Below the pieces are notes generated by a model. The model was not told where the DNA came from and made no database searches. It saw nothing but the letters and a program-made list of their open reading frames with translations. Source: Eledone cirrhosa (Eukaryota). Taken from it: DNA of 64,000 nucleotides. Numbering within the stretch: the first letter of the stretch is position 1; each line of letters starts with the position of its first letter. Location of the stretch: positions 69,812,001-69,876,000 of the forward strand of contig OZ024744.1 in the NCBI GenBank assembly GCA_964016885.1, read 5' to 3'. This document shows positions 7,441-61,981 of this stretch, in pieces. A program made the translations under genes and the position numbers.

Positions 7441-7866
7441 TTGCAGAAGTTATATTTAATTTGTTGGGATTCAACAAGCTTTAAAAAGTTGATAACTGAT
7501 ATAAAGCACTCAACAATGTCTAGGAACCATCGTTATACTTTCAGACGTTCAACCATCTGGCAGGAAGGTATACGTTGCTGACGATAGCTAATAAGCTTGA
7601 AACTAGTACAGCGTTTCTTTGTCAGTGTTGAACAAATGAGCAACGATGTTGCTAGACACTGTACGGCTTAATTCGGGATGTTTGTTTACAAACACACCGA
7701 GCATTATATCCATACGTACATATATATATGTGTGTGCATGTATGTATATATATATATATACTACTGTACGTCTGTATACATATATGTATGTACGTATACA
7801 TACTTATATTTAAGTAACAGCCGTACTAAGAGTGAGAAATGAAATTTCGTTTCATTTTTTCCGTTT
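7441..7866. mobile_element. (TA)n-flanked HHR element, apparently chimeric (family D arm plus a family C-like arm)
   Basis: 7535-7865 homologous to 45150-45440 and, reversed, to 44776-45063; 7445-7525 resembles 63401-63480. Confidence 0.75.
7572..7614 (+). ncRNA. Minimal type I hammerhead ribozyme (family D)
   Basis: ACGUUG CUGACGA U-AGCU-AAUA-AGCU-U GAAA CUAG UA CAGCGU; intact core, palindromic stem III. Confidence 0.88.
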
Positions 7867-7902: not shown

Positions 7903-8929
7903 GTTTATCTCTTTCTCTTAATTTCGAGTATATTTTTTACCGGCCACCTCCCTGGTGGCAAGGTTGTAAAAGAAAAGAAATTGTTATCCCTTAAATCGCA
8001 AGAATGTTTTGCACATTTTGAAGGTGCCAGCTATCGCAGCCATTTGTAGACTATGAGTAGACTATGAGTTAGGGAGCTGCGCTCTTTGTCCGCAAATCCA
8101 AGTTCAGTTATACATCGGTCCAAGCGGCTTGGTATATAACCCGTAGCTCCAATAATAATGGGTATGAAGCTAAAGGTGTATCTTGGATACTGGATTTGCA
8201 AACTCCTCATCAATGGTCCGTAGATGTCCTCCTTCTCCTGTATTTTTTTGACAAAGTTTACATCAGGTGGGTAGCTGATCTCCACAACAGAACACGTTTT
8301 CAATGTGGGGTCCCAAACATCAATATCAGGCCGGTTGTGCTTTAATTTGGTGGCAGTTTTTATTTTCAGGTTCCACCAGTATTCTTTAGTGCCATCTGTC
8401 TCAATATATTCTTCCTCGTTTGTTTTTAATTTTGTTCTCCGAAGTGCGTTCCAGATGGTTCTAGCTATCCTATCGTGTCTCATGGGGAGGTAGTAGCGAG
8501 ATGACATTCTTTCGCAGCTGGCAACAATGAGGCTTACATCTTCCATCTTTGTTTTGCATAGCCTACATTTATTGTCAGCTGATGGCCCTGCTCTTTTGTG
8601 CAGCAGATATTTGGTAGGGAGTTCTTGTTCCTGTATTGCATAGAGATATCCCTCAAGGTGTGATGTCATAAACTTGTCGGAACTCCATGCCAGGCTTTTT
8701 GAGTGGTTTATCCCCTCTATGGTCTGTGTTTTACGTCTCAAGTATCCATGCACAACTTTTTCTGTAAATTGGTCAATTTTTTCATCGTGTTTGAACATTG
8801 AATAGGATCTTCCGAATTCTCTGGGTGAGAGATTTATATCAGGCTTTATTCCATATCTCTCCTCCTGATCAGTGGCTATCCTAATGATATTTTTTTCTTC
8901 GTGCTCATAAACCTGGGCAAGATGGTTGT
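7903..8929 (-). mobile_element. R4/Dong-clade RLE non-LTR retrotransposon, 5'-truncated
   Basis: AIQEQELPTKY, CCHC finger CRLCK..SLIVASC, RHD, HNRPDI..VVEIS restriction-like endonuclease; (CATA)n/(TATG)n on both sides; close to 54303-55632. Confidence 0.88.
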
Positions 8930-9234
8930 ATGTATATATGTTTGTATGTATGTATGTATGTATGTATGTATGTATGTATGTATGTATGTATGTATGTATG
9001 TATGTATGTATGTATAAATATATATGTATGTATATATATATGTATGTACATTCTTCTGGTTTTATAATTTCATAAAGTTTTACCAATAGAGAGAGAGTCG
9101 GTTTCTAACATTGACACAAGACTCTCTCATTGGAATTTACACATCAACTAGGTAGATTATGTATGCATGCATGCATGTTATTGTATGTGTAGATGTGTAT
9201 GTTTTGAGTTGTATGTGTGCATGTGTATATGCTT

Positions 9235-11340
9235 AGTATCTGTACATGTGTATATACAGTTATGAGATGCAAAAATGTTGGAATGTTTTACATATTTTTA
9301 CTGTTCCATTAATGGATTGTACTTGTAATTTCCTAACTAGGTGCGATCTTTCTGTTCCTGTGAAGCCTAGCTTCTCAAGATTTGTATTGAGGCAGTTACT
9401 AACATACCCCAGTGCCCCAATAATCACAGGCATAAATCTGAAGGTGTAATCAGGGTGGAGTATCTGCAGATTTCTCATCAGTTCTGCATAAATATTCTCC
9501 TTTTCACTAATCTTTGATATTATATTGGCATCTTCTGGGCAGCTAATTCCCACTACTGTGCATGCCTTCTTTTCCTTGTCCCATATCATAATATCTGGTC
9601 TGTTATGCCTGCATTTTATTGGATTTTACTGGAACATTCCACCAGTACTCTTTCATATTATGTACATGGATGTCTTCCACATTGCTGTAGCTTTTAATGT
9701 GTTTATTATCGGGGCTATCTTTTCTACGGATTGCATTGTATAGTGCTTTGGCCACTACATCATGCCTCATAGGTAGATAGTACCGCGATGACATCTTTGG
9801 ACAGCTACTTATGACATGGGTGACATCTTCGATGTTAGTTCTGCAGAGTCTGCACTTGTTATCACATCTAGGTGTTTTCCCTGCATCCCTATCTCTTTTG
9901 TGAATCAGGTATTTCGTGTTAATTTCCTGTTCTTGGATTGCAAAAACGTATCCTTCAAAGTGGGAGCCAATATAGCAGTTGTTGGTCCAAGATAGACTAC
10001 TTTCCTTATCTATATTACCCTCACTCTGAAGCTTCCTGGCAACATATCCACGCATGATGTTTTGCTGATAGGCATGCAGTTTTTCATCCATGGATTCACT
10101 GCGATACTGCTGAGCGACATCCCTGGGTGTGAGTTTTTGATTATCACACAGGGAATATCTCTCAAGGAGTTCCTTCCCAACTCTCATGATCTTATCTGTT
10201 TCATGCAGATAGACTTGCTCGAGAGACGGGCTCCTACGCTTTGAAATTCGTAGATGTTGTCGGAGGGATATGATGCGACATTCAAATGCTGTTGGGACTG
10301 ATGTTAGGCCTGCTTTCGTTTCAAGTAAAAGCGATCTATGTCACTGTTGATGTGGAAGTTTCCAGTGTTGTTTAGTATTTTTCGAGTTCTAACATCAATT
10401 GCTCGGATTTCGTCTATCGTCCAATTGAGTCCTCCAAACGTTGGTGTTAGGACAGGCACAGCAAACACATTGTGAGCCACTGTTTTGTTTTGCGCAGAGA
10501 GTTCCGATGACCAAATCTTTTTTAATCGCGTGTAGTATTCCCTGGTTACGCGTTCTTTATTACAGATACCATTATAGGATATGTTCTCATCTATCCCCAG
10601 GTATCTCTAACAGTCCTCATCAGATATCGGTGAAACAGTTAGGCCATTGATGACAATGTTGATAGATTGGGTTGTTGTTTTTCCCCACTTTACAGTCATA
10701 TATGAGCATTTATCTTGGCCAAACTCCATTCCTATATCCTTTGAGAACGTTGTAACCAGGTCAAGATTTTTCTTCATCCCATCCATGTTCTTGGCATAGA
10801 CTTTCAGATCATCTACAAAGAAATTATGGGTTAGGTTCGTATTTCTGTCCTCCTGTGAGCCAATGATGTATCCTTCACATTTCTTGAGCAGAAAGGATAA
10901 GGGGTTTATTGACAGGATGAATAATATCACAGAGAGACTGTCTCCCTGAAATATACCCCTGTGATATTTTATTTTATCTGTGAAAATAGAGTCCTCCTTC
11001 TCTGTCTTTAACTTTAGGATAGTAGCCCAAGAAGAAGACAGCTTCTCTATGGCTCTGATAATAATGTCTGGGACTTTAGCAAGTTGGTGGAACAGATTCG
11101 AAAGCTTTCTTGTAGTCCAGCCAGTCTGTATCCATATTCCTCCTAAGTTGTCGGACCTCCGACATCGCAGTTGTGTTGGATGGCCGTTGACTCTTATGAG
11201 TTTTTCCGCAGGGTGTCCAAAATCACCCTCATCACCAAGTAAACTAGGTGGAGTTGCCGGTTTAGTCGCCGATGATCCGACCATGAGACAGATTGTACTG
11301 GGTTACATGTTACCAGTAGCACTCAAGAGAAACCTGACAT
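9235..11340 (-). mobile_element. Second R4/Dong family, internally deleted and frameshifted
   Basis: RT motifs WLDYKKAF, GIFQGDSLS, FFVDDLK; CRLC..HVISSC, RHD and endonuclease segments; 11135-11340 looks like the element 5' end (MVGSS..GHPAEK) fused to RT. Confidence 0.85.
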
Positions 11341-22874: not shown

Positions 22875-22875
<1 letters not shown>

Positions 22876-23525
22876 CCAGCAGAAATTGAAAATTAGAATT
22901 GGTGCTCTGAAATAGCGATATATATATATGAATGTATATATAGTGTATTTTGCAATACGCTGTATGCTTAATTAAAAGCATTTTGAAGACCATACGCTAT
23001 TATTTTAAAGTACTGACAGTGTCAATTACTTAAATTTTCAGCAAACAGGGGAGATAAGCTGTCAGAGCTCTGTTTCGTACTTATTTGGTACTTATCATAG
23101 CTCGCTAGTCTCCCTGTTTGCTGAAAATTATGTGTGTTGGATTCTTATAGAATTCCAGTAATAATCAGGAACTGATTACACAGAGCGGTCGCCGGTCCAT
23201 TCATATATATATATCGCTATTTCAGAGCACCAATTCTAATTTTCAATTTCTGCTGGACCGGCGACGCTCTGTGTAATCAGCTCCTGCTTATTACTGGAAT
23301 TCTATAAGAATCCAACACACATCATTTTCAGCAAACAGGGAGAGTAGTGGGCTTTGATAAGTACCTACAAGTACGAAACAGAGCTCTGTCAGCTTATCAC
23401 TCCTGTTTGCTGAAAATGTAAGTAATTGACACTGTCAGTACTTTAAAACAATAGCGTATGGTCTTCAAAATACTTTTAATTAAGCATACAGTGTATTACA
23501 AATTACACTATATATACATTCATAT
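22875..23525. mobile_element. Head-to-head pair of about 320-nt HHR monomers (family B, sister of the 310-bp array)
   Basis: Left arm 22875-23199 and right arm 23198-23525 are inverted, each one unit long; (TA)n on both sides; shares blocks such as TGCTCTGAAATAGCGATAT and AGAGCGGT.GCCGGTCC with the 310-bp unit. Confidence 0.88.
23349..23395 (+). ncRNA. Type I hammerhead ribozyme with U3:A8 variant core
   Basis: GGGCU UUGAUAA GUAC-CUACAA-GUAC GAAA CAG-AGCU-CUG UC AGCUU; damaged mirror copy at 23056-23103 (-). Confidence 0.75.
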
Positions 23526-24362
23526 ATATATATATATATATATATAAACAATTAAGTTAAAAATGTACATCCACATATGTATACTGAAATACTAGTATGC
23601 ATATGAATACACACACGTATACATATGTAGATGTACCAAGTCTTTCACTGGTTACTTTACTGTGAGTATCCAGCTATTCTGTATGTAAACACACAGACAA
23701 ACCGGTTTTTAGAGTCATACTGGTTTTTGAAGAAACACCTTTCCTCTATTCTCCAGAAAGCGTCAGTCTACACACAGAATCTACACACAGAAAAGACGCA
23801 ATGTTTAGACAAATCACAGAGGCAATAAACATAAATGAACTCCAACCAAAATTAAATAGAAAACATGAATGGAATAATAACATCACAACTTACAATTAAG
23901 GACAAAATGAAAACACACACATAGAACAAACAACCAACCAGTAACATGTAAATGAACAAATAAATAAACAAATAAAAAACACACACAGACACCTGGATGT
24001 AACACATGCGCAAACTAAGCACACAACAGGCACAAAAACAAGATGGCGTAGGACAGAACAAAGGAGAGGCACAAAACAAAGAAAAGAATCCCCAGTCACT
24101 GAAGTGGTCACAGAATGTGTGACGAAAGAACTTTGACAATATATGAACAACCGTCCGGTTATGGAATCAACCAACCAACCGGAAATTTATAAATTCTTAA
24201 ATTTATAAATTTAATTTATAATAAATTGGAGTGAAAGCAACTGGTGCGTGTGTTTCTTATTGGCAACATGACCCTCCCAAAGCATAACAATATCGGTTTC
24301 AACACACATTTTCAGATAAAGTATCTTGCTAAACAAATTCAGAAACGAAATATATATATATG

Positions 24363-24397
<35 letters not shown>

Positions 24398-24401
<4 letters not shown>

Positions 24402-24575
24402 CGGAGGAGTTGTGGTAAGGAACCAGATGGACCATAACGCACCAGAGTACTCAATACTTAGAGTAGTAGAGTGGGAAATAGGAAAAAGTATGACCCCGTC
24501 GGAAGAGATCAAGCCGTTTCGACGGCTATAGCCGTTATAGTCCATCTGGTTCCTTACCACATTTCCTTTGCTTTA
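24398..24575. mobile_element. Family F fold-back element with half hammerhead
   Basis: Minus arm carries stem II ACGGCUAUAGCCGUC, GAAA and a mutated stem III; no CUGA core; the inverted segment CCATCTGGTTCCTTACCACA follows. Confidence 0.7.
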
Positions 24576-24709
24576 TATATATATATGAAGATAGACATAG
24601 AATATTCGAAAATATTCTGTATGTTTATAATAAACATTTTGAAGACCTAATCGCTATAGAATAGAATACGTCACGTATTACAATTAGATTCTCGATAAAA
24701 GCAAGGGAA

Positions 24710-25682
24710 GTAACCTACGCGTTTCATTCTTATTAGAAATCTTCAGGATTACATATCCAGTGCTTTTATCGAGAATGACACAGCTAGAGACTTATAGAAT
24801 ACTTAGCTGTGTACAGGAACTGGTTTGAAAGAGCGGTTGCCGGTCCGGCAGAAATTAGAAATTAGATTAAGTGCTCTGAAATAGCGATATATATGTGAAG
24901 ATAGACATAGAATATTCGAAAATATTCTGTATGTTTATAATAAACATTTTGAAGACCTAATCGCTATAGAATAGAATACGTCACGTATTACAATTAGATT
25001 CTCGATAAAAGCAAGGGAAGTAACCTACGCGTTTCATTCTTATTAGAAATCTTCAGGATTACATATCCAGTGCTTTTATCGAGAATGACACAGCTAGAGA
25101 CTTATAGAATACTTAGCTGTGTACAGGAACTGGTTTGAAAGAGCGGTTGCCGGTCCGGCAGAAATTAGAAATTAGATTAAATGCTCTGAAATAGCGATAT
25201 ATATGTGAAGATAGACATAGAATATTCGAAAATATTCTGTATGTTTATAATAAACATTTTGAAGACCTAATCGCTATAGAATAGAATACGTCACGTATTA
25301 CAATTAGATTCTCGATAAAAGCAAGGGAAGTAACCTACGCGTTTCATTCTTATTAGAAATCTTCAGGATTACATATCCAGTGCTTTTATCGAGAATGACA
25401 CAGCTAGAGACTTATAGAATACTTAGCTGTGTACAGGAACTGGTTTGAAAGAGCGGTTGCCGGTCCGGCAGAAATTAGAAATTAGATTAAGTGCTCTGAA
25501 ATAGCGATATATATGTGAAGATAGACATAGAATATTCGAAAATATTCTGTATGTTTATAATAAACATTTTGAAGACCTAATCGCTATAGAATAGAATACG
25601 TCACGTATTACAATTAGATTCTCGATAAAAGCAAGGGAAGTAACCTACGCGTTTCATTCTTATTAGAAATCTTCAGGATTAC
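24710..25682 (-). ncRNA. Four minimal type I HHR copies (24710-24752, 25020-25062, 25330-25372, 25640-25682)
   Basis: Exact reverse complement of the motif at 26084-26126. Confidence 0.88.
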
Positions 25683-26083
25683 ATATCCAGTGCTTTTATC
25701 GAGAATGACACAGCTAGAGACTTATAGAATACTTAGCTGTGTACAGGAACTGGTTTGAAAGAGCGGTTGCCGGTCCGGCAGAAATTAGAAATTAGATTAA
25801 ATGCTCTGAAATAGCGATATATATGTGAAGATAGACATAGAATATTCGAAAATATTCTATTCTATTCTATAGCGATTAGGTCTTCAAAATGTTTATTATA
25901 AACATACAGAATATTTTCGAATATTCTATGTCTATCTTCACATATATATCGCTATTTCAGAGCATTTAATCTAATTTCTAATTTCTGCCGGACCGGCAAC
26001 CGCTCTTTCAAACCAGTTCCTGTACACAGCTAAGTATTCTATAAGTCTCTAGCTGTGTCATTCTCGATAAAAGCACTGGATAT

Positions 26084-27986
26084 GTAATCCTGAAGATTTC
26101 TAATAAGAATGAAACGCGTAGGTTACTTCCCTTGCTTTTATCGAGAATCTAATTGTAATACGTGACGTATTCTATTCTATAGCGATTAGGTCTTCAAAAT
26201 GTTTATTATAAACATACAGAATATTTTCGAATATTCTATGTCTATCTTCACATATATATCGCTATTTCAGAGCATTTAATCTAATTTCTAATTTCTGCCG
26301 GACCGGCAACCGCTCTTTCAAACCAGTTCCTGTACACAGCTAAGTATTCTATAAGTCTCTAGCTGTGTCATTCTCGATAAAAGCACTGGATATGTAATCC
26401 TGAAGATTTCTAATAAGAATGAAACGCGTAGGTTACTTCCCTTGCTTTTATCGAGAATCTAATTGTAATACGTGACGTATTCTATTCTATAGCGATTAGG
26501 TCTTCAAAATGTTTATTATAAACATACAGAATATTTTCGAATATTCTATGTCTATCTTCACATATATATCGCTATTTCAGAGCATTTAATCTAATTTCTA
26601 ATTTCTGCCGGACCGGCAACCGCTCTTTCAAACCAGTTCCTGTACACAGCTAAGTATTCTATAAGTCTCTAGCTGTGTCATTCTCGATAAAAGCACTGGA
26701 TATGTAATCCTGAAGATTTCTAATAAGAATGAAACGCGTAGGTTACTTCCCTTGCTTTTATCGAGAATCTAATTGTAATACGTGACGTATTCTATTCTAT
26801 AGCGATTAGGTCTTCAAAATGTTTATTATAAACATACAGAATATTTTCGAATATTCTATGTCTATCTTCACATATATATCGCTATTTCAGAGCACTTAAT
26901 CTAATTTCTAATTTCTGCCGGACCGGCAACCGCTCTTTCAAACCAGTTCCTGTACACAGCTAAGTATTCTATAAGTCTCTAGCTGTGTCATTCTCGATAA
27001 AAGCACTGGATATGTAATCCTGAAGATTTCTAATAAGAATGAAACGCGTAGGTTACTTCCCTTGCTTTTATCGAGAATCTAATTGTAATACGTGACGTAT
27101 TCTATTCTATAGCGATTAGGTCTTCAAAATGTTTATTATAAACATACAGAATATTTTCGAATATTCTATGTCTATCTTCACATATATATCGCTATTTCAG
27201 AGCACTTAATCTAATTTCTAATTTCTGCCGGACCGGCAACCGCTCTTTCAAACCAGTTCCTGTACACAGCTAAGTATTCTATAAGTCTCTAGCTGTGTCA
27301 TTCTCGATAAAAGCACTGGATATGTAATCCTGAAGATTTCTAATAAGAATGAAACGCGTAGGTTACTTCCCTTGCTTTTATCGAGAATCTAATTGTAATA
27401 CGTGACGTATTCTATTCTATAGCGATTAGGTCTTCAAAATGTTTATTATAAACATACAGAATATTTTCGAATATTCTATGTCTATCTTCACATATATATC
27501 GCTATTTCAGAGCATTTAATCTAATTTCTAATTTCTGCCGGACCGGCAACCGCTCTTTCAAACCAGTTCCTGTACACAGCTAAGTATTCTATAAGTCTCT
27601 AGCTGTGTCATTCTCGATAAAAGCACTGGATATGTAATCCTGAAGATTTCTAATAAGAATGAAACGCGTAGGTTACTTCCCTTGCTTTTATCGAGAATCT
27701 AATTGTAATACGTGACGTATTCTATTCTATAGCGATTAGGTCTTCAAAATGTTTATTATAAACATACAGAATATTTTCGAATATTCTATGTCTATCTTCA
27801 CATATATATCGCTATTTCAGAGCACTTAATCTAATTTCTAATTTCTGCCGGACCGGCAACCGCTCTTTCAAACCAGTTCCTGTACACAGCTAAGTATTCT
27901 ATAAGTCTCTAGCTGTGTCATTCTCGATAAAAGCACTGGATATGTAATCCTGAAGATTTCTAATAAGAATGAAACGCGTAGGTTAC
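26084..27986 (+). ncRNA. Seven minimal type I HHR copies (26084, 26394, 26704, 27014, 27324, 27634, 27944; 43 nt each)
   Basis: GUAAUC CUGAAGA U-UUCU-AAUA-AGAA-U GAAA CGCG UA GGUUAC; stem I continued by AUUCUCGAUAAAAGCA / UGCUUUUAUCGAGAAU. Confidence 0.9.
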
Positions 27987-28143
27987 TTCCCTTGCTTTTA
28001 TCGAGAATCTAATTATAATACGTGACGTATTCTATTCTATAGCGATTAGGTCTTCAAAATGTTTATTATAAACATACAGAATATTTTCGAATATTCTATG
28101 TCTATCTTCACATATATATCGCTATTTCAGAGCATTTAATCTA

Positions 28144-28194
<51 letters not shown>

Positions 28195-28198
<4 letters not shown>

Positions 28199-28366
28199 AT
28201 GACTCCGACGGCAGACCTCAAGCCGTTTCGACGACTATAGCCGTCGAAACGGCTTGAGCTCTGCCGTCGGGGGTCATACTTTCTCCTATTACCCACTCTA
28301 CTACCCTAAGTATTGAGTACTCTGGTGCGTTATGGTCCATCTGGTTCCTTACCACAACTCTTCCGT

Positions 28367-28370
<4 letters not shown>
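28195..28370. mobile_element. Family F fold-back element with half hammerhead
   Basis: Palindrome centred on CTATAG (28235-28240); plus arm GCCGUC GAAA CGGC-UUGAGCUCU-GCCG UC GGGGUCA; inverted homolog of 24398-24535. Confidence 0.75.
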
Positions 28371-32930: not shown

Positions 32931-33871
32931 TACCACTTTGTCGCGGGTGGGACCAATCCAGTTGACCACCGAGTCCATTGTCATGATCAAACCGCCACCC
33001 TCCTTCAAAAACGAAGGAGAGGCGGTTTTCCTTTGTGTGATAGCTATGGCGAAAGAGGTTGTATGGTGGACAAGGTTGAAAGGGCTGAGATCAGACACCT
33101 TTCTCTCCGGCCAACAACTGATTCTTTTTTTCAAATACCACTTTGGAAGAAGAATCAGGATGGAGAGAGAGGTGCTGTACCCCAGCAAGTTTTATGAAAG
33201 GTGGGTGAAAGTGGCGAGAATGGCCCGAGTGAATGGGCCTTCTCTCTATATCAGCCTGTAGGTTGAGGAAAAGGAGGAGGAGAGGAAAGGAGTACAAGCT
33301 CTTCGTACTCCTGGAGATGAGGGTTGCACATTTTTTTCGGGGGTCTGTGTTACCCATATAAACTGTCTCCCTCTATTGGGGAAAATCGACTAACTTTTAA
33401 ATTCCATCTGTGATAACATTTTACACGTTTTTATTGTATGTAAACTTCCCCCTTTGTATTTGTCCCCTTCTTTTGTGCCCCTGTGGCTAATAAAGAAATA
33501 TATCTATACCACTTTAGAAGAAGAATCAGGATGGAGAGAGAGGTGCTGTACCCCAGCAAGTTTTATGAAAGGTGGGTGAACGTGGCCTAATGGCCCGAGT
33601 GAATGGCCCTTCTCTCTATATCAGCCTGTAGGTTGAGGAAAAGGAGGAGGAGAGGAAAGGAGTACAAACTCTTCGTACTCCTGGAGATGAGGGTTGCACA
33701 TTTTTTCGGGGGTATGTGTTACCCATATGAAATGTCTCCCCCTATTGGGGCAAATCGATTAATTTTTAAATTGCATTTGTGATAGTATTTTACACGTTTT
33801 TATTGTATGTAAACTTCCCCCTTTGTATTTATCCCCTTCTTTTGTGCCCCTGTGGCTAATAAAGAACAGCC

Positions 33872-35950
33872 TTGGGCCAGTTTTTTGTCGCGAAGCACGA
33901 AGGTTGCGTTGTCCGAAGTAAAATACGTGCTCTAGGAAACGAGGGGCCCAAAGCTGTTAGCTGGGCCCGCGTGACAGAAGCCAAAAGAGGGATTAGATCC
34001 ACTATCCGGTCTTTGCGAGTCCAGGATGGACGGGTGATCTTTGAACCTAAGCAGATGTGTGAGGCCTTTAAAAGGCGCTTTACCCGATTGTTCGGGAGGG
34101 GCGGGGGGCCGGATGGGGATGTGGACTTCAATCCATACCTCGACGGCCTGCCGCGTCTTTCGGACGAGGAGGCGAAGTCCTGCGAGGAGCCGATTTCAGT
34201 TGCTGAGATAAAGGTGGTGCTGAGCCGATGCGGCAAACGCAAATCCCCGGGTCTCGATGGTCTTCCATACGAACTATATCTAGCTATGCCGGACTTGTTC
34301 CCCGATCTCCTCGAGGCGGTCTACTGCAACTGGCAACAGAAGGGGAGAATTCCCTGTTCTGTAACCAAGGGCGTAGTCTCGCTAGTGAGGAAGAACGAGG
34401 ACAAGGGGGACGAAATAAGGAATTTCAGGCCCATAACTCTGCTAAATGCAGAGTTAAAGATTTTGGCCAAGGTGTTAGCAAAGAGGTTGGCGTTTGTCGT
34501 GGGCAACCTGGTGGGAGATGCGCAGACATGTGCTATCCCGTCCAGGTCCATCCACGACAACCTCCACCTTATGCGATACATTATAGAGAGGGGTGGGAAC
34601 GAACCTGGCTTAGGTGGGGCCCTGATCAACTTGGATCAATATAAGGCGTTCAATAGGGTCTACCATGGTTACCTGGATGCGGTGCTAGCGGCGGCAGGTT
34701 TCGGACCCGTTTTCAGGGGCTGGATCAGTGCCATGCACAGCAGCCGCATCTGCTCTAGAGTCAAGGTAAACGGCTACCTCTCGGAGCCGTTCGAAATCAC
34801 GCGGTCCATCCGACAAGGGTGCCCTCTCTCCTCCCTTCTTTATGTATTGGCCCTCGAGCCACTGATGCGGAAGTTGGAGTTGTTGCAGGGCATCCCTTTG
34901 GAACTGGGATTGCGGAAAGCGGTGTCGGCCTACGCCGATGACGTAACAGTAATGATGTCGACCGCCTCGGAAATCGAGGCGATCGGCACCTTACTGGAGG
35001 AGTACCAAAGGTTTACAGGACAAGTCGACCGGGACAAGTCGATCGGGTTGCAACTCGGCACGTGGAGGGGCAAATCGATGCCCTCCGATTGCGTCGCCGG
35101 ACGCTGGACGGAAGGCCAGGTGAGGTTGCTCGGGGTCTGGTTCGGACCAGACCTCCAGGTGGAGAAGAACTGGGGTGAGGTAACGAACAGGGTGTTTGCA
35201 CTAACCCAGAAGTGGACCGAGTGCAAACTATCCCTGAAAGGTCGGGCGGAGGTGGCGAACATTTATATAGCGTCCGTCATCTACTACCGCCTGACCGTCG
35301 TGCCTGCCCAAGGGGAACGCTCACCAAAATGGAGCGCGCACTCTTCCAATTCCTTTGGAAGAAGCGGGCCCCTTTGGTGAGGAGATCCATCTGCGAAAGG
35401 AGGGCTGGGGATTCCGTAGCTGCCTATGCGTAAACACGCATTAAGGCTACGGCACCTCCAGGTATTCCTCACCGGTCAACCGGTGTGGGACCCGTTGTGA
35501 GACGAACCTTTCCGAGACTCGTTTCACTCACCAAGCTGCAATCCTGGGTCAAGCAAAGACCGAGAAAACTGGGCGCCTGGCACACCGACATTCTATAGAG
35601 GGCTGGTACGCAGCAGGTGCCACAACGCCCTCGAAGAAGCCCTAGGAAGAGGAAGACGGACTGGCCAGCCTGTTCGGTAGGACATTTAGCCCGGGACCCA
35701 TGGACAACTTCCAGAGGTCCCTGGCCTGGCAGTGCTACCGAGGGGCTCTGCCCGTTCGAGAAAAGCTCTACAGACACGGGCGCCCGGGTAGGGGCCCCTC
35801 GAAAAAGATCTGTCCCAGATGCGTGCGCGACGAGGAAACCGTCACGCATGCATTGGTACACTGCCCGGGCGTCGCCGATCTGTGGGGCTAAGTCGAACGA
35901 CTGTTGTCACGGGTAGGACCTATCCGGTTGACCACCGAGTCCATTATAAC
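33872..35950 (+). pseudogene. Tx1/L1 ORF2 reverse transcriptase, disrupted
   Basis: KSPGLDGLPYE, FRPITLLN, RQGCPLS, AYADD; frameshift near 35310; C-terminal CPRC..HALVHC. Confidence 0.9.
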
Positions 35951-36349
35951 TATTGAGGACTTTATTGTTAATTTCATATTTTTTATCTGTTTTTTTACTC
36001 GTTCTTTTGTGTAAACTCCCCCCTTTGTATTTGTCCCCTCCTTTTGCGTACTCGTGGCAATAAATAGAAACATATCTATCTATCTATAAGTCCACGATTC
36101 GGTCTTTGAAGGACCAAGACGGACGCGTGATACGTGAGTCGAAGCAGATGTGCGCGGTCTTTCAGCGGCACTTTGCTCAACTGTTCGGGCAGGGCGGCGC
36201 GCCGGGAGGGGCTATGGATTTAGGTCCATACTTTAGGTCCATACTGCGAAAGGCCGATTTCAGCCGCTGAGATAGGGGACGCGCTGAGCCAATGCGGCAA
36301 ACGCAAATCTCCAGGTCCTGACGGTCCACCCTACGAATTTTACGTAGCA

Positions 36350-38116
36350 ATGCCGCACTTGTTCTCCGGTCTCCTGGAAGCGGTCAACTGCAACTGGCAG
36401 CAGAAAGGGAGAATTTCCAGTTCTGTGACCAAGGGCGTAGTCACACTTGTCAGGAAGGACGAGAATAAGGAGGATGACATAGGCAACTTCCGGCCCATAA
36501 CTCAGATTTTGGCCAAGGTGTTGGCAAAGAGGCTGGCGCTTGTCGTCGAAAACCTGGTAGGAGAAGCGCAGACATGCGAAATCCCGACCAGGTCCATACA
36601 CAACAACCTCCACCTCATGCGATACATCATAGAGAGGGTAGGGTGTAAACCCGGCTTCGGTGGGGCTCTGATCAACTTGGATCAGTCTAAGGCTTTTGAT
36701 ATGGTTGACCATCGTTACCTGGATGCGGTGCTCGAGGCGGCAGGCTTCGGACCCGATTTCAGGGATTGGATTGCTGCAATGCACAGCAGCAACATCTGCT
36801 CAAGGGTCAAGGTGAACGGCTACCTCCCGGAACCGTTCCATATCACGCGATCCATCCGACAGGGGTGTCCTCTCTCCTCCCTTCTGTACGTACTGACTGT
36901 CGAGCCACTACTGCGGAAGTTGAAGATATTGCAGGGCATTTCTTTGGAACCGGGACTGCGAAAAGCGGCATCGGACTGCGCCAACGACATGACGGTAATG
37001 GTGTCGAGCACCTATCAATTCGGGGAATACGAAAGGTTCAAAGGAGCGAAGCTGAACCGGGACAAATCCGTCGGTTTGCAACTCGGCACGTGGAGAGGCA
37101 AACCGATGCCTTCCGATGGCGTCATCGGACGCTGGACGGAAGGACCGGTAAAGCTGCTCGGGGTCTGGTTTGGTCCGGACCTCCAAGTGGAGAAGAACTG
37201 GAACGAGGTGACGGCCAAGGTGTTTGCGCTCACCCAGAAGTGGGCCGAGTGCAAACTATCCTTGAAAGTTCGAGCGGAGGTGGCGAACACTTTTATAGCG
37301 TGCGTCATCTACTACCGCTTGACCGTCGTGCCTTGTCCAGCCAAAACGCTCGCCAAAATGGAGCGCGCGCTCTTCCAATTCTTTTGGAAGAAACGGGCTT
37401 CTTTGATGAGAAGATCCATCTGCTGCCAACACCCTTCAAACGGAGGGCTGGGGGTACCGTGGCTGACGATGCGCAAACACGCGCTCAGGCTGCGGCACCT
37501 CCACGTATTCCTCACCGGACAATCGGTGTGGGCCCCGTTCGTGAGGCGAGCCTTCCCACGACTCGTCTCGCTGACCGAACTGAAGTCCTGGGTCAAGCAA
37601 AGACCGAGGAAAATGGGCGACTGGCACATCGAATGTGCTCAGGCGCTCACAGTCCTCTTGCAAACGAACCCAGCGATCAGTGGAGACTCCACTTCGTCAT
37701 TCTATAGAGGGTTGATCCGCAGCAAGTGCGACGACGCGCTCGTAGAAACTCTAGGCGTAGAGGAGGACGAACTGGCCAGTCTGTTCGGTAAGACCTTCCG
37801 CCTGGGACCGATGGACAACTTCCAAAAGTTGTGCTACCGAGGAGCTCTACCAGTTCGAGACAAGCTCCTCAGACACGGGCGCCCGGGCAGGGACCCTTCG
37901 AAAAAGATCTGTCCGAGATGCGTGCGCGACGAGGAAAGCGTCGCGCACGCATTTGTACACTGCCCGCGCGGTACCGATCTGTGGGGCTATGTAGAACGAC
38001 TATTGTCGCGGGTGGGACGAATCCGGTTGACCACCGAGTCCATTGTCATGATCAAACCGCCACCTTCCTTCAAAAACGAAGGAGAGGCGGTTTTCCTATG
38101 TTCAACCCCTATGTAA
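36350..38116 (+). pseudogene. Tx1/L1 ORF2 RT and C-terminal zinc knuckle, catalytically dead
   Basis: LDQSKAFD, RQGCPLS; YADD replaced by CAND; small deletions relative to the 59954 copy. Confidence 0.9.
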
Positions 38117-44735: not shown

Positions 44736-46396
<1,661 letters not shown>

Positions 46397-47150: not shown

Positions 47151-47334
47151 TACCGCTGTAATTGTTGTAGAAGAAACAGGAAGACAACAACTGGAAAGTT
47201 TGATTTCCATCTTCCCATATAAGGAATTACCCCTTGAAAAGTTCGGCTATTTATTACCACGCTAAAAATTCTAATTTAGTAGAGAAATAGCCTTCGAAAC
47301 GGATTGAGCTCTGCCGTCGGGGTTAAACATTTTC

Positions 47335-47423
<89 letters not shown>

Positions 47424-47477: not shown

Positions 47478-47538
47478 TATTTTATCTGATGAGAGCGTAC
47501 CAAAGTTTTGGTACCCTTGAAATATATATAGTAGAATA
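47478..47538 (+). ncRNA. Minimal type I hammerhead ribozyme (family C)
   Basis: UAUUUUAU CUGAUGA GAG-C-GUACCAA..UUGGUAC-C-CUU GAAA UAUAUA UA GUAGAAUA; between (TA)n tracts; homolog at 63534-63596 (-). Confidence 0.82.
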
Positions 47539-47709: not shown

Positions 47710-50700
47710 CTAGCAGTTTAGCCCGGCGTTGCTCGGGCTTGTTCATTTGCTATGAACAGTTGCATACAGGTAAACGTAGCTTGAAAGCGCATGAGCTTAT
47801 CAATTAAGTGGATAAAGCAGTTCAACCGGTTATTAAATGTTACGAACCAATTAGCATTTTCGACAATCAATGATGGGTTAATAATCTTCCAATAACGAAT
47901 TTAGCAGACCAAAGTTGCAAAATGGTGTCCCTCATGCCGCTGGGGGTCAGATCTGTCCGCTATGGGTGACCCTACCAGTTTTCCAGACGGCATAGCTCCA
48001 ACACCTCCAACACCTGCACCAACATCTATAGCACTTCTTTGTAGACGATATTGCGTGTCATCCCTTGAGGAGTGTAAGCAAAAAGTCCATTCCTGCTTCC
48101 TATGCGGGAACAGGCAACATAAAGTTGGCCATTGGAGAAGCATGGCTCCCCCAAATAGATGCCCGCCACCGACAATGCTTGCCCTTGTGACTTGTTAATG
48201 GACATGGCAAAACATGGTCTCACCGGGAATTGGAATCGCCGGAAATCGAACGGGATATCTGACGCCGGGGGGAAAAGGTTCATCCTTGGAATGAAAACAT
48301 TCTCCCCTCTCCCGCACCCCGTTACCATGGTGGCCTCAATCAAGTAGGGCGTCAGTGACTTGACGACCATGCGAGAACCGTTGCACTGCTTTGGTGGACG
48401 CAAGTTCCTTATTAGCATAATGGGACAGCCAACCCTAAGCTTAAGAATGTGAGGTGAGAGCCCTGGGGGCTCAAGGGAATTTAATAACTCAACCGAATAA
48501 TTAATGATATCGTCGGGGTCTGACGTCCGGTCGATAGATTTGAAGATGTGTTCTTTACCGGGAATCTTCTCAATCAGACGGTCGTTCATAAAATTAACCA
48601 TGGTATTTTTCGGAGCAAGGATGGCTCTTTCGCTGAGCCAATCGAGGTTTTTAAAGTTAGATGAGACATTAGGAAAAACTGATTCCCAAAGGTCAGAAGG
48701 GCTGCTCCCAATGTTGCACATGGAGTCGATTGCTATGCCACCCTTGTCATCCGCAGGGACCTTGCCCTCACTAAGTGCTAAAATATTCTGAGCAAAATGC
48801 TGCAGTAATGTTGTCACCATGCAAATGAGCACGCATATTTGTGCTCAGGTACAAACTCTTCACCTGGAGTCACAACATGGACGACTTAAGGCAGGCACGC
48901 ACTTCATCAGCTCTTGTCCCTTTGGGAATGACAGGCAGCGTTTGCCGAAAATCCCCTGATAGCAGAAGGGTTACGCCACCCATAGGAGCCGTATAATCCC
49001 TAATGTCTTTCAGGGTCCTGTCCAATGCCTCAAGGGCACCCTTGTGTGCCATTGTACACTCATCCCAAACAAAGAGGCAACATTTTTTGAGAACCAGAGC
49101 TTCGTGTGAACTCTTGCTGATATTGCATGTTGGTGTCTCAGTTTTTACTAAATCCAAGGGTAGTTTAAAGGTTGAATGTGCTGTCCTGCCTCCCGGCAGC
49201 AAAGTAGCAGCGATCCCAATCGATGCAACGGCCAACGCAATTTTTTTCTCCTGGCGAATCTTAGCGAGAATCAATTTCGTTACAAATGTTTTTCCGGTAC
49301 CCCCAGGAGCATCGAGAAAGTAAATACCCCGAGTCTGATTTTTAACCGCGTCAATGATAGTTAAATAGGCCAACCTTTGGTCCGACAGAAGTTTGGGCTC
49401 ATTTTCCTCTAAGTATTGGGAAAGAGATTCGATGTCAAATGCGGTTTCCCGCAACAAATCCGGGGCCAACGTGTTAGCTTCCTCTCTGACGGTTGATGGC
49501 AAGCCATACGTCGCCAACTCACTCCCACCCATGTCGAGGAGGGCGTCCTCGATATCAATGAGTGCCCTGTTGTAGATAATGTCGCCGTAACCAACTTCCA
49601 CTGAAGTATACTGCAGATGAGCTAGGCGCAGGAAGTCCTCAGACATGAAGTCTCTGTACTTGACCCATAAATATTTGAGATCACCCAATTCACACTTTTG
49701 AAGCAAAATGGCAAAGAGTTCCCGTAGACCTTTAGGTGATTTCAACAACGCACTCTCTGCTAAAGTGGAATCCCATTGCGAATCATCTTCCAAAAGACCA
49801 CGCTTAAAGCAGGCTTCCCGGTACGTATCACATATTTCTCCATCAACAGTTTTGAGGTGCTGAAAACTTTGTGGGCCTACAACTTCATGCAGAAGAAGGC
49901 AGAGATGAAAGCACTCATGCTGACTTGGGGGCACAGTGTAAACCCTTCCAAGACAGCTGTCAAATTTTACACCAGGATGTCTTTCAGCAGCCTGACCTGA
50001 CTTTCTTCGCACCCAAGTGTTTTTCGACCATATAAAGTAGGATGGAACCTGGGAGTACACAATTGTTTGCGCAAATGTATCGAACTGGCAAAGTTTGAAG
50101 AAACCCGTCAGAGTGATCTCTTTCGGATCGGCGGCCAACTTGGCGGCGGTTTGGTCCGTAAAGTAAACCCTTTGCCCATTTTCCAAATGTACCGCAAGCT
50201 GTACGATGGCGGGGTGAAGTTGGTGTAGGTGTAAACCAAATAGGCACCAAAAAGCTTCATTGCTACTGATGTACCGCCCCGCCAGGTATTCTGTGACATC
50301 GTCGCTGTTATTTTCAGCTTGAAATGCGAACATTGCGGCATCAGAGCCCTTATTTAGATATTTGTATATGTATTTTATCGACTTGACGGAGTTGCAAAAC
50401 TCAACGTTGATGTGGGCGTTGAACATCTTCAAGATAGGCGGGCAGTAATGGACCACCCATCTATTGTCGACTTGACCTCCCCTTACTGTTGTGGTGAAAC
50501 CACCGTTCTCGGACCGTCTCCGCCTGTACAGGGGGTACCCGTCGCCACCAGTCTGAGTCTGGTCAACAAATATTTTTGGGTATCCCTTACTGCACGACCC
50601 CCCTTTCAGACACGTGTGATGCTCATTAGGACCCGACGCACACGGACCATGATAGCTTTGAAGATGTCATGTAATTCCTGGTCAGTTGCTGGGTTAGGGA

Positions 50701-54302: not shown

Positions 54303-55632
54303 GTTATCTCTTTCTCTTAATTTCGAGTATTTTTTTTTTGACCGGCCACCTTCCTGGTGGCAAGGTTGTAAAAGAAAAGAAATTGTCATCCCTTGAATCG
54401 CAAGAATGTTTTGCAAATTTTGAAGGTGCCAGCTATCGCAGCCATTTGTAGACTATGAATTAGGGAGCTGCGCTTTTTGTCCGCAAATCCAAGTTCAGTC
54501 ATACTTTGGTCCAAGCGGGTTGGTATATAACCCGTAGTTCCAATAATGATGGGTATGAAGCTAAAGGTGTATCTTGGATACTGGATTTGTAAACTCCTCA
54601 TCAATGATCCGTAGATGTCCTCCTTCTCCTCTATTTTTCTGACAACGTTTACATCAAGTGGGCAGCTGATCTCCACAACAGAACATGTTTTCAATGTGTG
54701 ATCCCAAACAACAATATCAGACCGGTTGTGCTTTAATTTGGTGGCAGTTTTTATTTTCAGGTTCCACCAGTATTCCTTAGTGCCATCTGTCTCAATATAT
54801 TCTTCCTCGTTTGTTGTTAATTTTGTTTTCCGAAGTGCGTTCCAGATGGTTTTAGCTATCCCATCGTGTCTCATGGGGAGGTAGTAGCGAGATGACATTC
54901 TTTCGCAGCTGGCAACAATGTGGCTTACATCCTCGATCTTTGTTTTACATAGCCTACATTTATTGTCAGCTGCTGGCCCTCCTCTTTTGTGCAGCAGATA
55001 TTTGGTAGGGAGTTCTTGTTCCTGTATTGCATAGAGATATCCCTCAAGGTGTGATGTCATAAACTTGTCGGAACTCCATGCCAGGCTTTTTGAGTGGTTT
55101 ATCCCCTCTATGGTCTGTGTTTTACGTCTCAAGTATCCATGCACAACTTTTTCTGTAAATTGGTCAATTTGTTTATCTTGTTTGAACATTGAATAGGATC
55201 TTCCGATTTCTCTGGGTGAGAGATTTATATCAGGCTTTATTCCATATCTCTCCTCCAGATCAGTCGCTATTCTAATGATTTTTGTTTTTCATGCTCATAA
55301 ACCTGGGCAAGATGGTTGCCAACCTTTTTCCTCTGTTGAAGGTGTTGCTTCAGTGTTACTATCCGGGTCTCATATGTTGTTAATATTGATTTTAGACCCC
55401 GGCCACCTTCCTTGCGTGAGAAGTATAGCCTATCCACATCACCATTGATGTTAAAGTTCCCAGTAACACTGAGAAGTTTGCGAGTTCTAACATCCATCTC
55501 ACTTAGTTCTTGCAATGACCAGTTCAGCAGGCCAAATGTTGGCGTTAGAATTGGCACAGCATAAGTATTGTGGGCAATGTATTTGTTGTATGCTGACAGT
55601 TCTGATGACCATATTTTCTTTACTCTTCTGGT
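54303..55632 (-). mobile_element. R4/Dong RLE retrotransposon, 5'-truncated
   Basis: DVDRLYFSRKEGGRGL, AIQEQEL, CRLC..HIVASC, RHD, VVEISCP; flanked by (TATG)n. Confidence 0.9.
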
Positions 55633-55727
55633 GTATGTATGTATTTATGTGTGTATGTATGTATTTATGTATGTATGTATGTATGTATGTATTTATGTGT
55701 GTATGTATGTATTTATGTATGTATATA

Positions 55728-58540: not shown

Positions 58541-58573
58541 GTCTCTACACTCTCCTTTGGCTCTGCCGCCCAC

Positions 58574-61500: not shown

Positions 61501-61981
61501 TCTACCCGTTCGAGAGAGGCTCTACAGACACGGGCGCCCGGGCAGGGATCCCTCAAAAAAGATTTGCCCTAGATGCGTGCGTCACGAAGAAACCGTTGCG
61601 CACGCATTGGTGCAATGTCCGGGCATGGCTGATCTGTGGGGCTACGCCGAACGACTGCTGTCGCGGGTGGCGCCGATTCAATTGACCGCCGAGTCCGTGA
61701 TGACAATCAAACCGGCTCCCCTCTTCACAAAAGAAGCAAAGGCGGTTTTTCTGTGCGTAATAGCCATGTTGAAAGAGGTTGTTTGGTGGACACGATTGAA
61801 AGGTCTGAGGTCAGGCAACTTCCTCTCTGGCCATAGTCTGGTCTACTTCTTCCGATATCACTTCGGAAGAAGGATAAGAATGGAGAGAGAGGTGCTTGGC
61901 CACAGGCAGTTTTATGAAAGGTGGGTGATAGTAGCGAGAATGGCTCGTGTAAATGGGCCTTCTCTGTATACCATTCTGTAG
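58574..61981 (+). pseudogene. LINE ORF2 (APE endonuclease, RT, zinc knuckle) with three in-frame TAG stops
   Basis: LNARGL, ICETR, VGD*N, SYLDRF, TDHK; LDQSKAFDRVDH, RQGCPLS, AYADD; CPRC..HALVQC; the four ORF pieces share one frame. Confidence 0.95.

What the first reader, a model, noticed from the sequence alone, without database searches (positions are those of the whole stretch)
24585..28147. Young 310-bp hammerhead-ribozyme tandem array, a candidate circular-RNA (retrozyme) element
Seen: about 11.5 near-identical 310-bp non-coding units, each with CUGAAGA..GAAA-CGCG-UA inside a 6-bp stem I (GUAAUC/GGUUAC). Predicted cleavage falls after 26120, 26430, 26740, 27050, 27360, 27670 and 27980. 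Established: tandem repeats of a few hundred bp carrying minimal type I HHRs (non-LTR retrozymes) self-cleave to monomers that circularise, and palindromic stem III (ACGCGU) motifs work as dimers. Inference: this array is a recent integration of a rolling-circle cDNA and could release 310-nt RNAs.
Basis: partly seen in the sequence, partly recalled or inferred. Interest (0 to 1): 0.92.

Follow-up and report, generated by a model that had tools for sequence, protein, structure and literature searches.

The report
Back-to-back hammerhead retrozyme, Penelope-style insertion
This is one copy of a young, non-coding 310-base repeat with a predicted self-cutting RNA motif, present in about 14,000 units across this genome and mostly inserted in TA microsatellites as two back-to-back arrays ending at two different fixed points, a footprint that likely records how a Penelope-type retrotransposon enzyme copies one, possibly circular, RNA from both cut DNA strands.

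Summary
The repeat and the hammerhead motif are real, but this is not one tandem array. It is two arms joined 5'-to-5' at 25858: 4.1 units on the minus strand (24586-25858) and 7.4 on the plus strand (25858-28147), both ending in (TA)n. The genome holds at least 13,700 units. Of 76 loci, 55 have two arms, all with 3' ends outward. In 53 of 55, one arm ends at unit position ~130-139 and the other at ~165; none uses the same end twice. This matches the one-sided 30-40-bp 'tail' of Penelope-like elements (PLEs) and their two internal priming sites. Both arms share one haplotype, and 5' ends avoid no site and favour no cleavage site, which fits rolling-circle copying of one RNA from both target strands (inferred). 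Self-cleavage, circular RNA and the partner PLE were not shown. Verdict: a non-LTR retrozyme (known class) with a PLE insertion footprint that I did not find described for retrozymes. This scan noted the same architecture in two other genomes (e1-8807173, e1-8672319).

The parts
24574..24585 (.). (TA)6 left target remnant; it merges with the unit's internal AT run, so the boundary is uncertain by a few bases
   Evidence: sequence
24586..25858 (-). left arm, 4.1 units; 3' end outward at unit position 130 ('short' end; unit position 1 = 26121), 5'-truncated at unit position 98
24710..24752 (-). type I hammerhead motif, one of four on the minus arm (others 25020-25062, 25330-25372, 25640-25682)
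25853..25858 (.). 5'-to-5' inversion junction; 1 base shared in register, a 6-base TATTCT match one 5-nt repeat out of register
25858..28147 (+). right arm, 7.4 units; 5'-truncated at unit position 48, 3' end at unit position 165-167 ('long' end)
26060..26148 (+). ribozyme domain of one unit: a 16-bp perfect inverted repeat (26060-26075 / 26133-26148) that extends helix I
   Evidence: z -5.7 against 200 shuffles for 26050-26160
26084..26126 (+). type I hammerhead motif, first of seven on the plus arm (period 310); predicted cut after 26120; helix III palindrome ACGCGT
28111..28147 (+). ~35-bp 'tail' (unit 131-167), present at this end and absent at the left end
28147..28194 (.). (TA)24 right target remnant

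Best explanation
The array is one insertion of a non-coding, hammerhead-bearing 310-bp repeat (a non-LTR retrozyme) made of two back-to-back arms in a (TA)n tract, and it was likely pasted in by a Penelope-like reverse transcriptase/GIY-YIG endonuclease that would prime both nicked target strands on the same RNA, probably a monomer circle. Shown in sequence: two arms with 3' ends outward, one ending at unit ~130-139 and the other at ~165; TA flanks; scattered 5' ends joined by 1-6 shared bases; one haplotype on both arms. Inferred: tandem transcripts self-cleave (best as double hammerheads through the ACGCGU palindrome) and are ligated to 310-nt circles. The enzyme binds the region conserved across sister families (unit ~60-210), nicks both strands of (TA)n, and starts one cDNA at each of two internal sites ~35 nt apart. 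Each cDNA runs round the template for a variable number of turns, and the two 3' ends are joined by microhomology.
For: Architecture: 55 of 76 loci have two arms, all 55 minus-then-plus; 53 of 55 pair one short with one long end, 0 short-short, 0 long-long, 2 other. In the position-ordered sets alone (36 loci) it is 27 of 28. (TA)4 lies at 125 of 130 outer ends; 46 of 65 long-class ends are exactly at unit 165. Junctions: mean 2.3 shared bases in the 36 flush or overlapping junctions of 51 simple ones, against 0.76 at random. One template: arm haplotypes identical in 12 of 14 loci with 2 or more full units per arm, against 8% between loci, 0 of 100,000 permutations. C266A occurs at one locus only, in 6 of 6 motif copies on both arms. 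Not a cleaved linear template: 4 of 102 5' ends lie within 5 nt of the cut (3.3 expected), and 83 of 124 arms cross 2 or more cut sites. Young arrays are long and nearly uniform: 2 singletons in 76 units, median 7.7 units, against 31 in 55 units and median 2.7 in the window's subfamily (length p = 0.07). Literature: PLE insertions have an inverted 5'-truncated copy, a 30-40-bp tail often at one end only, and a (TA)n bias (PMC8557442). A purified PLE protein nicks and extends both strands and starts at two adjacent internal RNA sites that bound the tail (PMC11167929). RT plus GIY-YIG PLEs are in this genome. One family has a hammerhead with the same U.U helix II base and a palindromic helix III, and its two-armed copy L188 ends +123 and +171 nt after the cut.
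Against: No partner PLE found: no pLTR-like match to the unit in 30 + 15 GIY-YIG loci examined of 10,597 candidates (both outputs were cut in the middle, the BLAST tables were seen whole). In the window's variant the catalytic fold lies 3.6 kcal/mol above the preferred fold, and helix II has probability 0.05-0.07 in the monomer. G10.1-C11.1 is absent and Rfam cut-offs are not reached. 10 of 24 arrays with 4 or more full units are mosaic, the window among them (T155C in 5 units on both arms, private to this locus); some show periods of 3, 5 or 10 units. A single monomer circle does not give that without later exchange. In vitro, PLE insertion did not need hammerhead cleavage and showed no strand difference in start site (PMC11167929). 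The short end coincides with an internal AT run, so it could be a strand-annealing site and not a priming site. Subfamily agreement between arms (42 of 42 at N7) could partly reflect subfamilies active at different times. L104's variant proved to be a subfamily (855 copies), not private.
Confidence: 0.68

Rival explanations
1. Same PLE machinery and the same two priming sites, but the template is an uncleaved linear multimer transcribed from a source array; the hammerhead and any circle are not part of mobilisation.
For: Hammerhead mutants did not reduce PLE insertion in vitro, and unprocessed RNA was the main substrate (PMC11167929). Mosaic, periodic arrays (10 of 24) and mirror-placed variants in both arms of L038 fit a multimer template. 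The window's monomer folds away from the catalytic form.
Against: Each round would copy at most the source length, yet the youngest arrays are the longest and uniform. A variant found at one locus fills all 6 motif copies of both arms. The ribozyme keeps its model through subfamily changes.
Confidence: 0.2
2. Short PLE-type insertions are made first; tandem arrays, the second arm and arm-to-arm identity arise afterwards at the DNA level (fold-back repair, unequal crossover, gene conversion), as in the local-amplification scenario of Li et al. 2026.
For: Higher-order periods of 3-10 units and mosaic private variants. Long palindromes are known to convert (recalled). The short end lies in an AT run that could anneal to the flank.
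Against: Does not predict one short plus one long end in 53 of 55. Neither arm class is the longer one (long-end arm longer in 29 of 52), as simple fold-back copying would suggest. Older arrays tend to be shorter, not longer (p = 0.07).
Confidence: 0.1
3. Ordinary locus-bound satellite, or an assembly artefact (fold-back chimera), with a chance hammerhead-like motif.
For: No Rfam hit at gathering score. Long-read fold-back artefacts make palindromes (recalled).
Against: Hundreds of dispersed loci on many contigs. The arms differ in length, register and end site, and flanks are not mirrored (63 loci printed, one clear 21-nt exception at L062). TA-joined ends also appear in contigs of a separate public run.
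Confidence: 0.02

Closest known systems
Metazoan non-LTR retrozymes (Cervera & de la Pena 2020, PMC7229834; Li, Clavereau & Pollet 2026, bioRxiv 10.64898/2026.07.22.740005)
   Same: 150-450-bp tandem units, a type I hammerhead in each, low GC, no ORF, thousands of dispersed copies. Rolling-circle copying by PLEs was proposed there. The U.U base of helix II resembles axolotl HHR_Amex2.
   Different: In the text I read or searched, neither paper describes inverted two-arm insertions, fixed 3' ends, a one-sided tail or (TA)n targeting ('inverted' 0 hits in PMC7229834, 1 hit in the preprint's reference list; 'tail' 0 in the preprint). Supplements were not seen. Cleavage and circles were shown there for coral, mussel and axolotl, not here.
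EN+ Penelope-like elements: insertion anatomy (Craig et al. 2021, PMC8557442) and Poseidon_Ac biochemistry (Frangieh et al. 2024, PMC11167929)
   Same: Inverted 5'-truncated copy, 30-40-bp tail at one end, AT-rich or (TA)n targets, two internal start sites downstream of a hammerhead, both strands extended, predicted dimer.
   Different: This element has no ORF and runs to 28 units per arm. No sequence match to a pLTR was found. The strict one-site-per-arm pairing is not reported in the passages read; Frangieh saw no strand difference in vitro.
Non-autonomous Chlamys elements such as MRC1 (PMC8557442, passage)
   Same: Non-coding PLE passengers with multicopy head-to-tail insertions.
   Different: That clade lacks canonical hammerheads, and its passengers share 3' ends with known autonomous partners; no partner is identified here.
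LINE-1 twin priming (recalled, no call)
   Same: Both target strands prime, giving a 5' inversion joined by microhomology.
   Different: In L1 the second primer lands at variable internal sites and the first cDNA stops near it. Here both starts are fixed, and the inner ends are scattered over the unit.

Membership tests
Metazoan non-LTR retrozyme | Tandem units of 150-450 bp, GC under 50% | tested here: met
   310 bp, about 34% GC
Metazoan non-LTR retrozyme | Type I hammerhead motif in every unit | tested here: met
   11 of 11 full cores in the window; 390 ribozyme regions in fetched arms, 260 identical to the window's
Metazoan non-LTR retrozyme | No protein-coding capacity | tested here: met
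   Longest stop-free stretch 46 codons in six frames over four units
Metazoan non-LTR retrozyme | No LTR, primer-binding site or polypurine tract | not tested
   No LTR-type layout is seen in the loci; PBS and PPT were not searched
Metazoan non-LTR retrozyme | Dispersed, mobile copies | tested here: met
   987 + 12,746 motif copies; 76 loci mapped
Metazoan non-LTR retrozyme | Self-cleavage of the transcript | not testable with these tools
   Fold prediction only
Metazoan non-LTR retrozyme | Expressed as linear and circular monomer RNA | not testable with these tools
Metazoan non-LTR retrozyme | Target-site duplication, when present longer than 4 bp | tested here: inconclusive
   Ends lie in (TA)n; no convincing non-microsatellite direct repeat in the 63 loci printed before the script stopped
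Canonical metazoan type I hammerhead | Core CUGANGA / GAAA / UH; helix I 6 bp, helix II 4 bp, short palindromic helix III | tested here: met
   definition from PMC4209133 passage
Canonical metazoan type I hammerhead | G10.1-C11.1 pair | tested here: not met
   U.U in the window, A-U in one young subfamily; U.U is also in the weakly active axolotl HHR_Amex2
Canonical metazoan type I hammerhead | Rfam hammerhead model at gathering score | tested here: not met
   HH9 17.1 of 52 bits, E 0.12; none at cut-off
Canonical metazoan type I hammerhead | Loop 1-loop 2 tertiary contacts | not tested
   Not modelled
Non-autonomous PLE-mobilised element | Inverted 5'-truncated copy at the 5' end | tested here: met
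   55 of 76 loci, all 5'-to-5'
Non-autonomous PLE-mobilised element | 30-40-bp tail at one end | tested here: met
   Ends at unit 130 (or within the AT run to 139) and 165; 53 of 55 carry one of each
Non-autonomous PLE-mobilised element | AT-rich or microsatellite target | tested here: met
   125 of 130 outer ends at (TA)4
Non-autonomous PLE-mobilised element | EN+ PLEs present in the genome | tested here: met
   10,597 GIY-YIG candidates, 150 scored; RT + GIY-YIG ORFs of 938 and 636 aa
Non-autonomous PLE-mobilised element | Sequence shared with the pLTR or 3' end of an autonomous partner | tested here: inconclusive
   None in 45 EN loci examined of 10,597; only geometry is shared with the L179/L188 family

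The most novel reading that the evidence does not exclude
These arrays are genomic records of double-primed rolling-circle reverse transcription. One PLE enzyme dimer holds a single 310-nt ribozyme-made RNA circle, and its two subunits start on opposite target strands at two fixed, non-equivalent sites, always one each. That would explain the PLE one-sided tail and inverted copy, and would be direct genomic evidence that animal retrozyme circles are transposition intermediates.
Probability: 0.4. Interest if true: 0.75.

Novelty: new variant of a known kind. Interest (0 to 1): 0.52.

Why it matters
How PLEs make their tandem and inverted insertions and one-sided tail is stated to be unresolved (PMC8557442), and mobilisation of animal retrozymes through circles by PLEs is a proposal (PMC4209133, PMC7229834, the 2026 preprint). 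A very young, non-coding family with thousands of near-identical two-armed insertions gives sharp predictions: which start site goes with which strand, one template per event, multi-turn cDNA from a circle. It also offers a 310-nt substrate to test them. The class itself is known, and the scan has noted this footprint in two other genomes, so this locus is a good example and not a unique one.

Tried and rejected
(1) RNA evidence: no RNA holder listed. (2) Three public runs each gave one 340-nt contig that closes on itself with period 310. I considered these as circles and rejected that: the same runs carry a LINE from this window at similar depth, so trace tandem genomic DNA explains them, and the runs' kind is not on record. 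Their variants are the young subfamilies of this same genome, so they are not cross-species covariation. (3) Partner search: Pfam on 15 ORFs beside arrays, 3' flanks of PLE fragments, 30 + 15 GIY-YIG loci, 30 sister-family loci. No shared pLTR was found; PLE neighbours are separate insertions in the same TA tracts. (4) Target-site duplications: unreadable in (TA)n; the script stopped after 63 loci, before its folding part, so no energy for the full double-hammerhead fold was obtained, only -9.5 kcal/mol for the palindrome duplex. One energy (6.8) came from a mis-registered structure and is discarded. (5) Rfam E-value scan of four loci: the 150 listed of 253 hits were microsatellite or hairpin noise, with no hammerhead among them. 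(6) Fold-back copying of one fixed arm class: not supported (29 of 52). (7) L104's 127C as a private variant: rejected. (8) Supplement of PMC7229834 could not be read; its Figure S9 model and the closed bioRxiv supplements may bear on the novelty claim. (9) The host taxon was not determined; 'octopus' and 'cephalopod' in paper searches were my guess from genome size and microsatellite load.

Full report
Observation. Tandem Repeats Finder gives two arrays of period 310 at 99% matches, 24577-25858 (4.1 copies) and 25858-28147 (7.4 copies). Self-BLAST shows they are reverse complements of each other. The arms meet 5'-to-5' at 25858, and both outer ends run into (TA)n. I number the unit from the base after the predicted cut (unit 1 = 26121). 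The left arm ends at unit 130, the right arm at 165-167.

The ribozyme. Helix I is GUAAUC/GGUUAC and is extended by a perfect 16-bp stem (z -5.7). Helix II has 4 bp over a U.U pair. Helix III is the palindrome ACGCGU. This matches the canonical metazoan type I layout given in PMC4209133 (passages), except for G10.1-C11.1. Axolotl HHR_Amex2 has the same U.U, cleaves 22% as a monomer and better as a dimer (PMC7229834). Rfam gives nothing at cut-off and HH9 at 17.1 of 52 bits. In the monomer domain the catalytic fold is -29.2 against -32.8 kcal/mol for the preferred fold; the palindrome duplex between two motifs is -9.5. So dimer-dependent cleavage is plausible but only predicted. Of 24 substitution types seen at 2 or more loci, 7 fall in the 43-nt motif, and all 7 keep the model (wobble changes in helices I and II, N7, 10.1, loop II); a random change does so in 34 of 129 cases. 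All are one-sided changes. The circular monomer folds at z -4.7 against 60 shuffles. The longest stop-free stretch is 46 codons.

Family size and age. The genome is 3.0 Gb in 1,796 contigs. A DNA search gave 249 candidate places; the 40 scored were 99-100% identical. The window's motif variant has 987 exact copies, and the CTGATGA variants have 12,746; reversed controls gave 0. Single-unit substitutions: 2 in 76 full units in young CTGATGA arrays, 31 in 55 in position-ordered arrays of the window's subfamily, 0 in 9 in the window (one more change lies in its last partial unit).

Architecture across loci. I mapped 76 loci: 40 chosen by best score, the window included, and 22 + 14 taken in order along contig 1. 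L033/L034 were replaced by L093, L094 was merged with L047, and L115 held no element. Two of the one-arm rows are cut, by a contig start and by a run of N. 55 loci have two arms, all minus-then-plus. 53 pair a short end (unit 117-139) with a long end (158-172); none pairs like with like; 2 have an odd end. In the position-ordered sets it is 27 of 28. The 21 one-arm loci end at the same two sites (11 short, 10 long). 125 of 130 outer ends abut (TA)4; 46 of 65 long-class ends are at 165; short ends read as unit 130 in 31 cases, within the AT run in 27, other in 7. Of 51 simple junctions, 36 are flush or overlap (mean 2.3 bases against 0.76 at random; the window's was scored 6 but is 1 in strict register), 13 have inserted bases, and 2 inside the internal palindrome were dropped. 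The long-end arm is the longer arm in 29 of 52.

What the template was. With fixed outer ends as priming sites, the template is the hammerhead-sense strand (inference). It is not a cleaved linear RNA: 4 of 102 inner ends lie within 5 nt of the cut (3.3 expected), and 83 of 124 arms cross 2 or more cut sites, up to 28 units. Both arms come from one haplotype: 12 of 14 identical against 8% between loci (the two misses are the window and L053, both mosaic), and 42 of 42 agree at N7. C266A exists at one locus only and fills all 6 motif copies of both arms. A second candidate proved to be a subfamily. Young arrays are longer (median 7.7 against 2.7 units, p = 0.07). Against a pure monomer circle: 10 of 24 arrays with 4 or more full units are mosaic, all in the window's subfamily, some with periods of 3, 5 or 10 units. 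In the window, T155C is private and reads C,T,C,T on the left arm and T,C,T,C,C,T,T,T on the right, outer to inner. That fits neither a mirror copy nor a dimer circle exactly and remains unexplained; multimer templates or later conversion would both do.

The enzyme. PLE insertions carry an inverted 5'-truncated copy and a 30-40-bp tail often at one end only, with (TA)n as a preferred target of one clade (PMC8557442, passages). Purified Poseidon_Ac nicks and extends both strands of AT-rich DNA and starts at two adjacent internal RNA sites that bound the tail. It is predicted to be a dimer, and it does not need hammerhead cleavage in vitro (PMC11167929, parts 1-2 of 4). This genome has 10,597 GIY-YIG candidates and RT + GIY-YIG ORFs. 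One PLE family has a hammerhead with a U.U helix II base and a palindromic helix III; its two-armed copy L188 ends +123 and +171 nt after the cut. No sequence link to any PLE end was found in 45 loci. What older ~320-330-bp sister families (1,333 motif matches; one copy at window 22875-23533) share with this unit is unit ~59-212, the region around the two ends, and not the ribozyme. A crude scan found outward-facing short-plus-long pairs in 5 of 31 sister loci, but that set was selected for the long end.

Comparison and novelty. The element meets the sequence-level definition of a metazoan non-LTR retrozyme; cleavage and circles are untested. Circular templates for PLE tandem copies were proposed in PMC4209133, and PLE mobilisation of retrozymes in PMC7229834 (parts 2-4 of 6 read, supplement unreadable) and the 2026 preprint (part 1 of 5, Discussion and passages). 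The preprint favours local amplification after insertion, which the data here argue against. Paper searches gave no listing that describes two-armed, one-site-per-arm retrozyme insertions; the library lacks most subscription journals. Earlier notes of this scan report the same build in two other genomes. I had reached that reading before the look-up, and those notes are not independent support. Verdict: known class, new variant in its insertion footprint, interest 0.52.

Noticed in passing
window 22875-23533: Older ~330-bp sister element, also two inverted arms between TA tracts, one long and one short end, with a decayed hammerhead core; shares unit ~59-212 at 76-84%.
   Followed up: partly
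window ~23830-24350: 3' end of a GIY-YIG PLE with a decayed hammerhead near 24098, ending in (TA)n; looks like the same family as the ORF end in L060 (read by eye).
   Followed up: partly
window 24400-24576, 28195-28370, 47287-47340: Small repeat family with internal inverted arms, flanking the array on both sides as separate copies (87-94% alike); in 12 of 41 sequences searched. No hammerhead seen in these fragments.
   Followed up: no
window 7578-7608, 45198-45228; L050: Another hammerhead family (palindromic ACTAGT helix III) that forms ~500-bp tandem arrays on both strands in L050; its size recalls the 490-base family of note e1-8672319.
   Followed up: partly
L033 4770-5010, L051 1980-2170, L061 105-190: Related hammerhead with the same helix II but different helices I and III (4-bp helix III), again with two arms and unequal TA-joined ends.
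   Followed up: partly
L093 (28.4 units), L032, L094, L067, L056: Higher-order periods of about 5, 5, 10, 3 and 3 units in older arrays: multimer templates or later unequal exchange.
   Followed up: partly
G000: The window's subfamily shows 334 forward against 653 reverse copies while the young ones are balanced (6,699 / 6,047); a very large unlisted array may exist.
   Followed up: no
L062 3810-3830 and 5470-5490 (approximate): The sequence just beyond the TA tracts on both sides is a 21-nt inverted repeat, which suggests duplication of the flank during insertion.
   Followed up: no
window 48026-50666 (-): PIF1 helicase ORF pieces, E 5e-54, likely a Helitron.
   Followed up: no
window 33863-38116, 58541-61981, 54386-55644, 8031-11302: Fragmented LINE-type reverse transcriptase ORFs.
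   Followed up: no
window 47486-47526: A further CTGATGA..GAAA hammerhead-like motif between TA tracts, with related copies in other loci.
   Followed up: no
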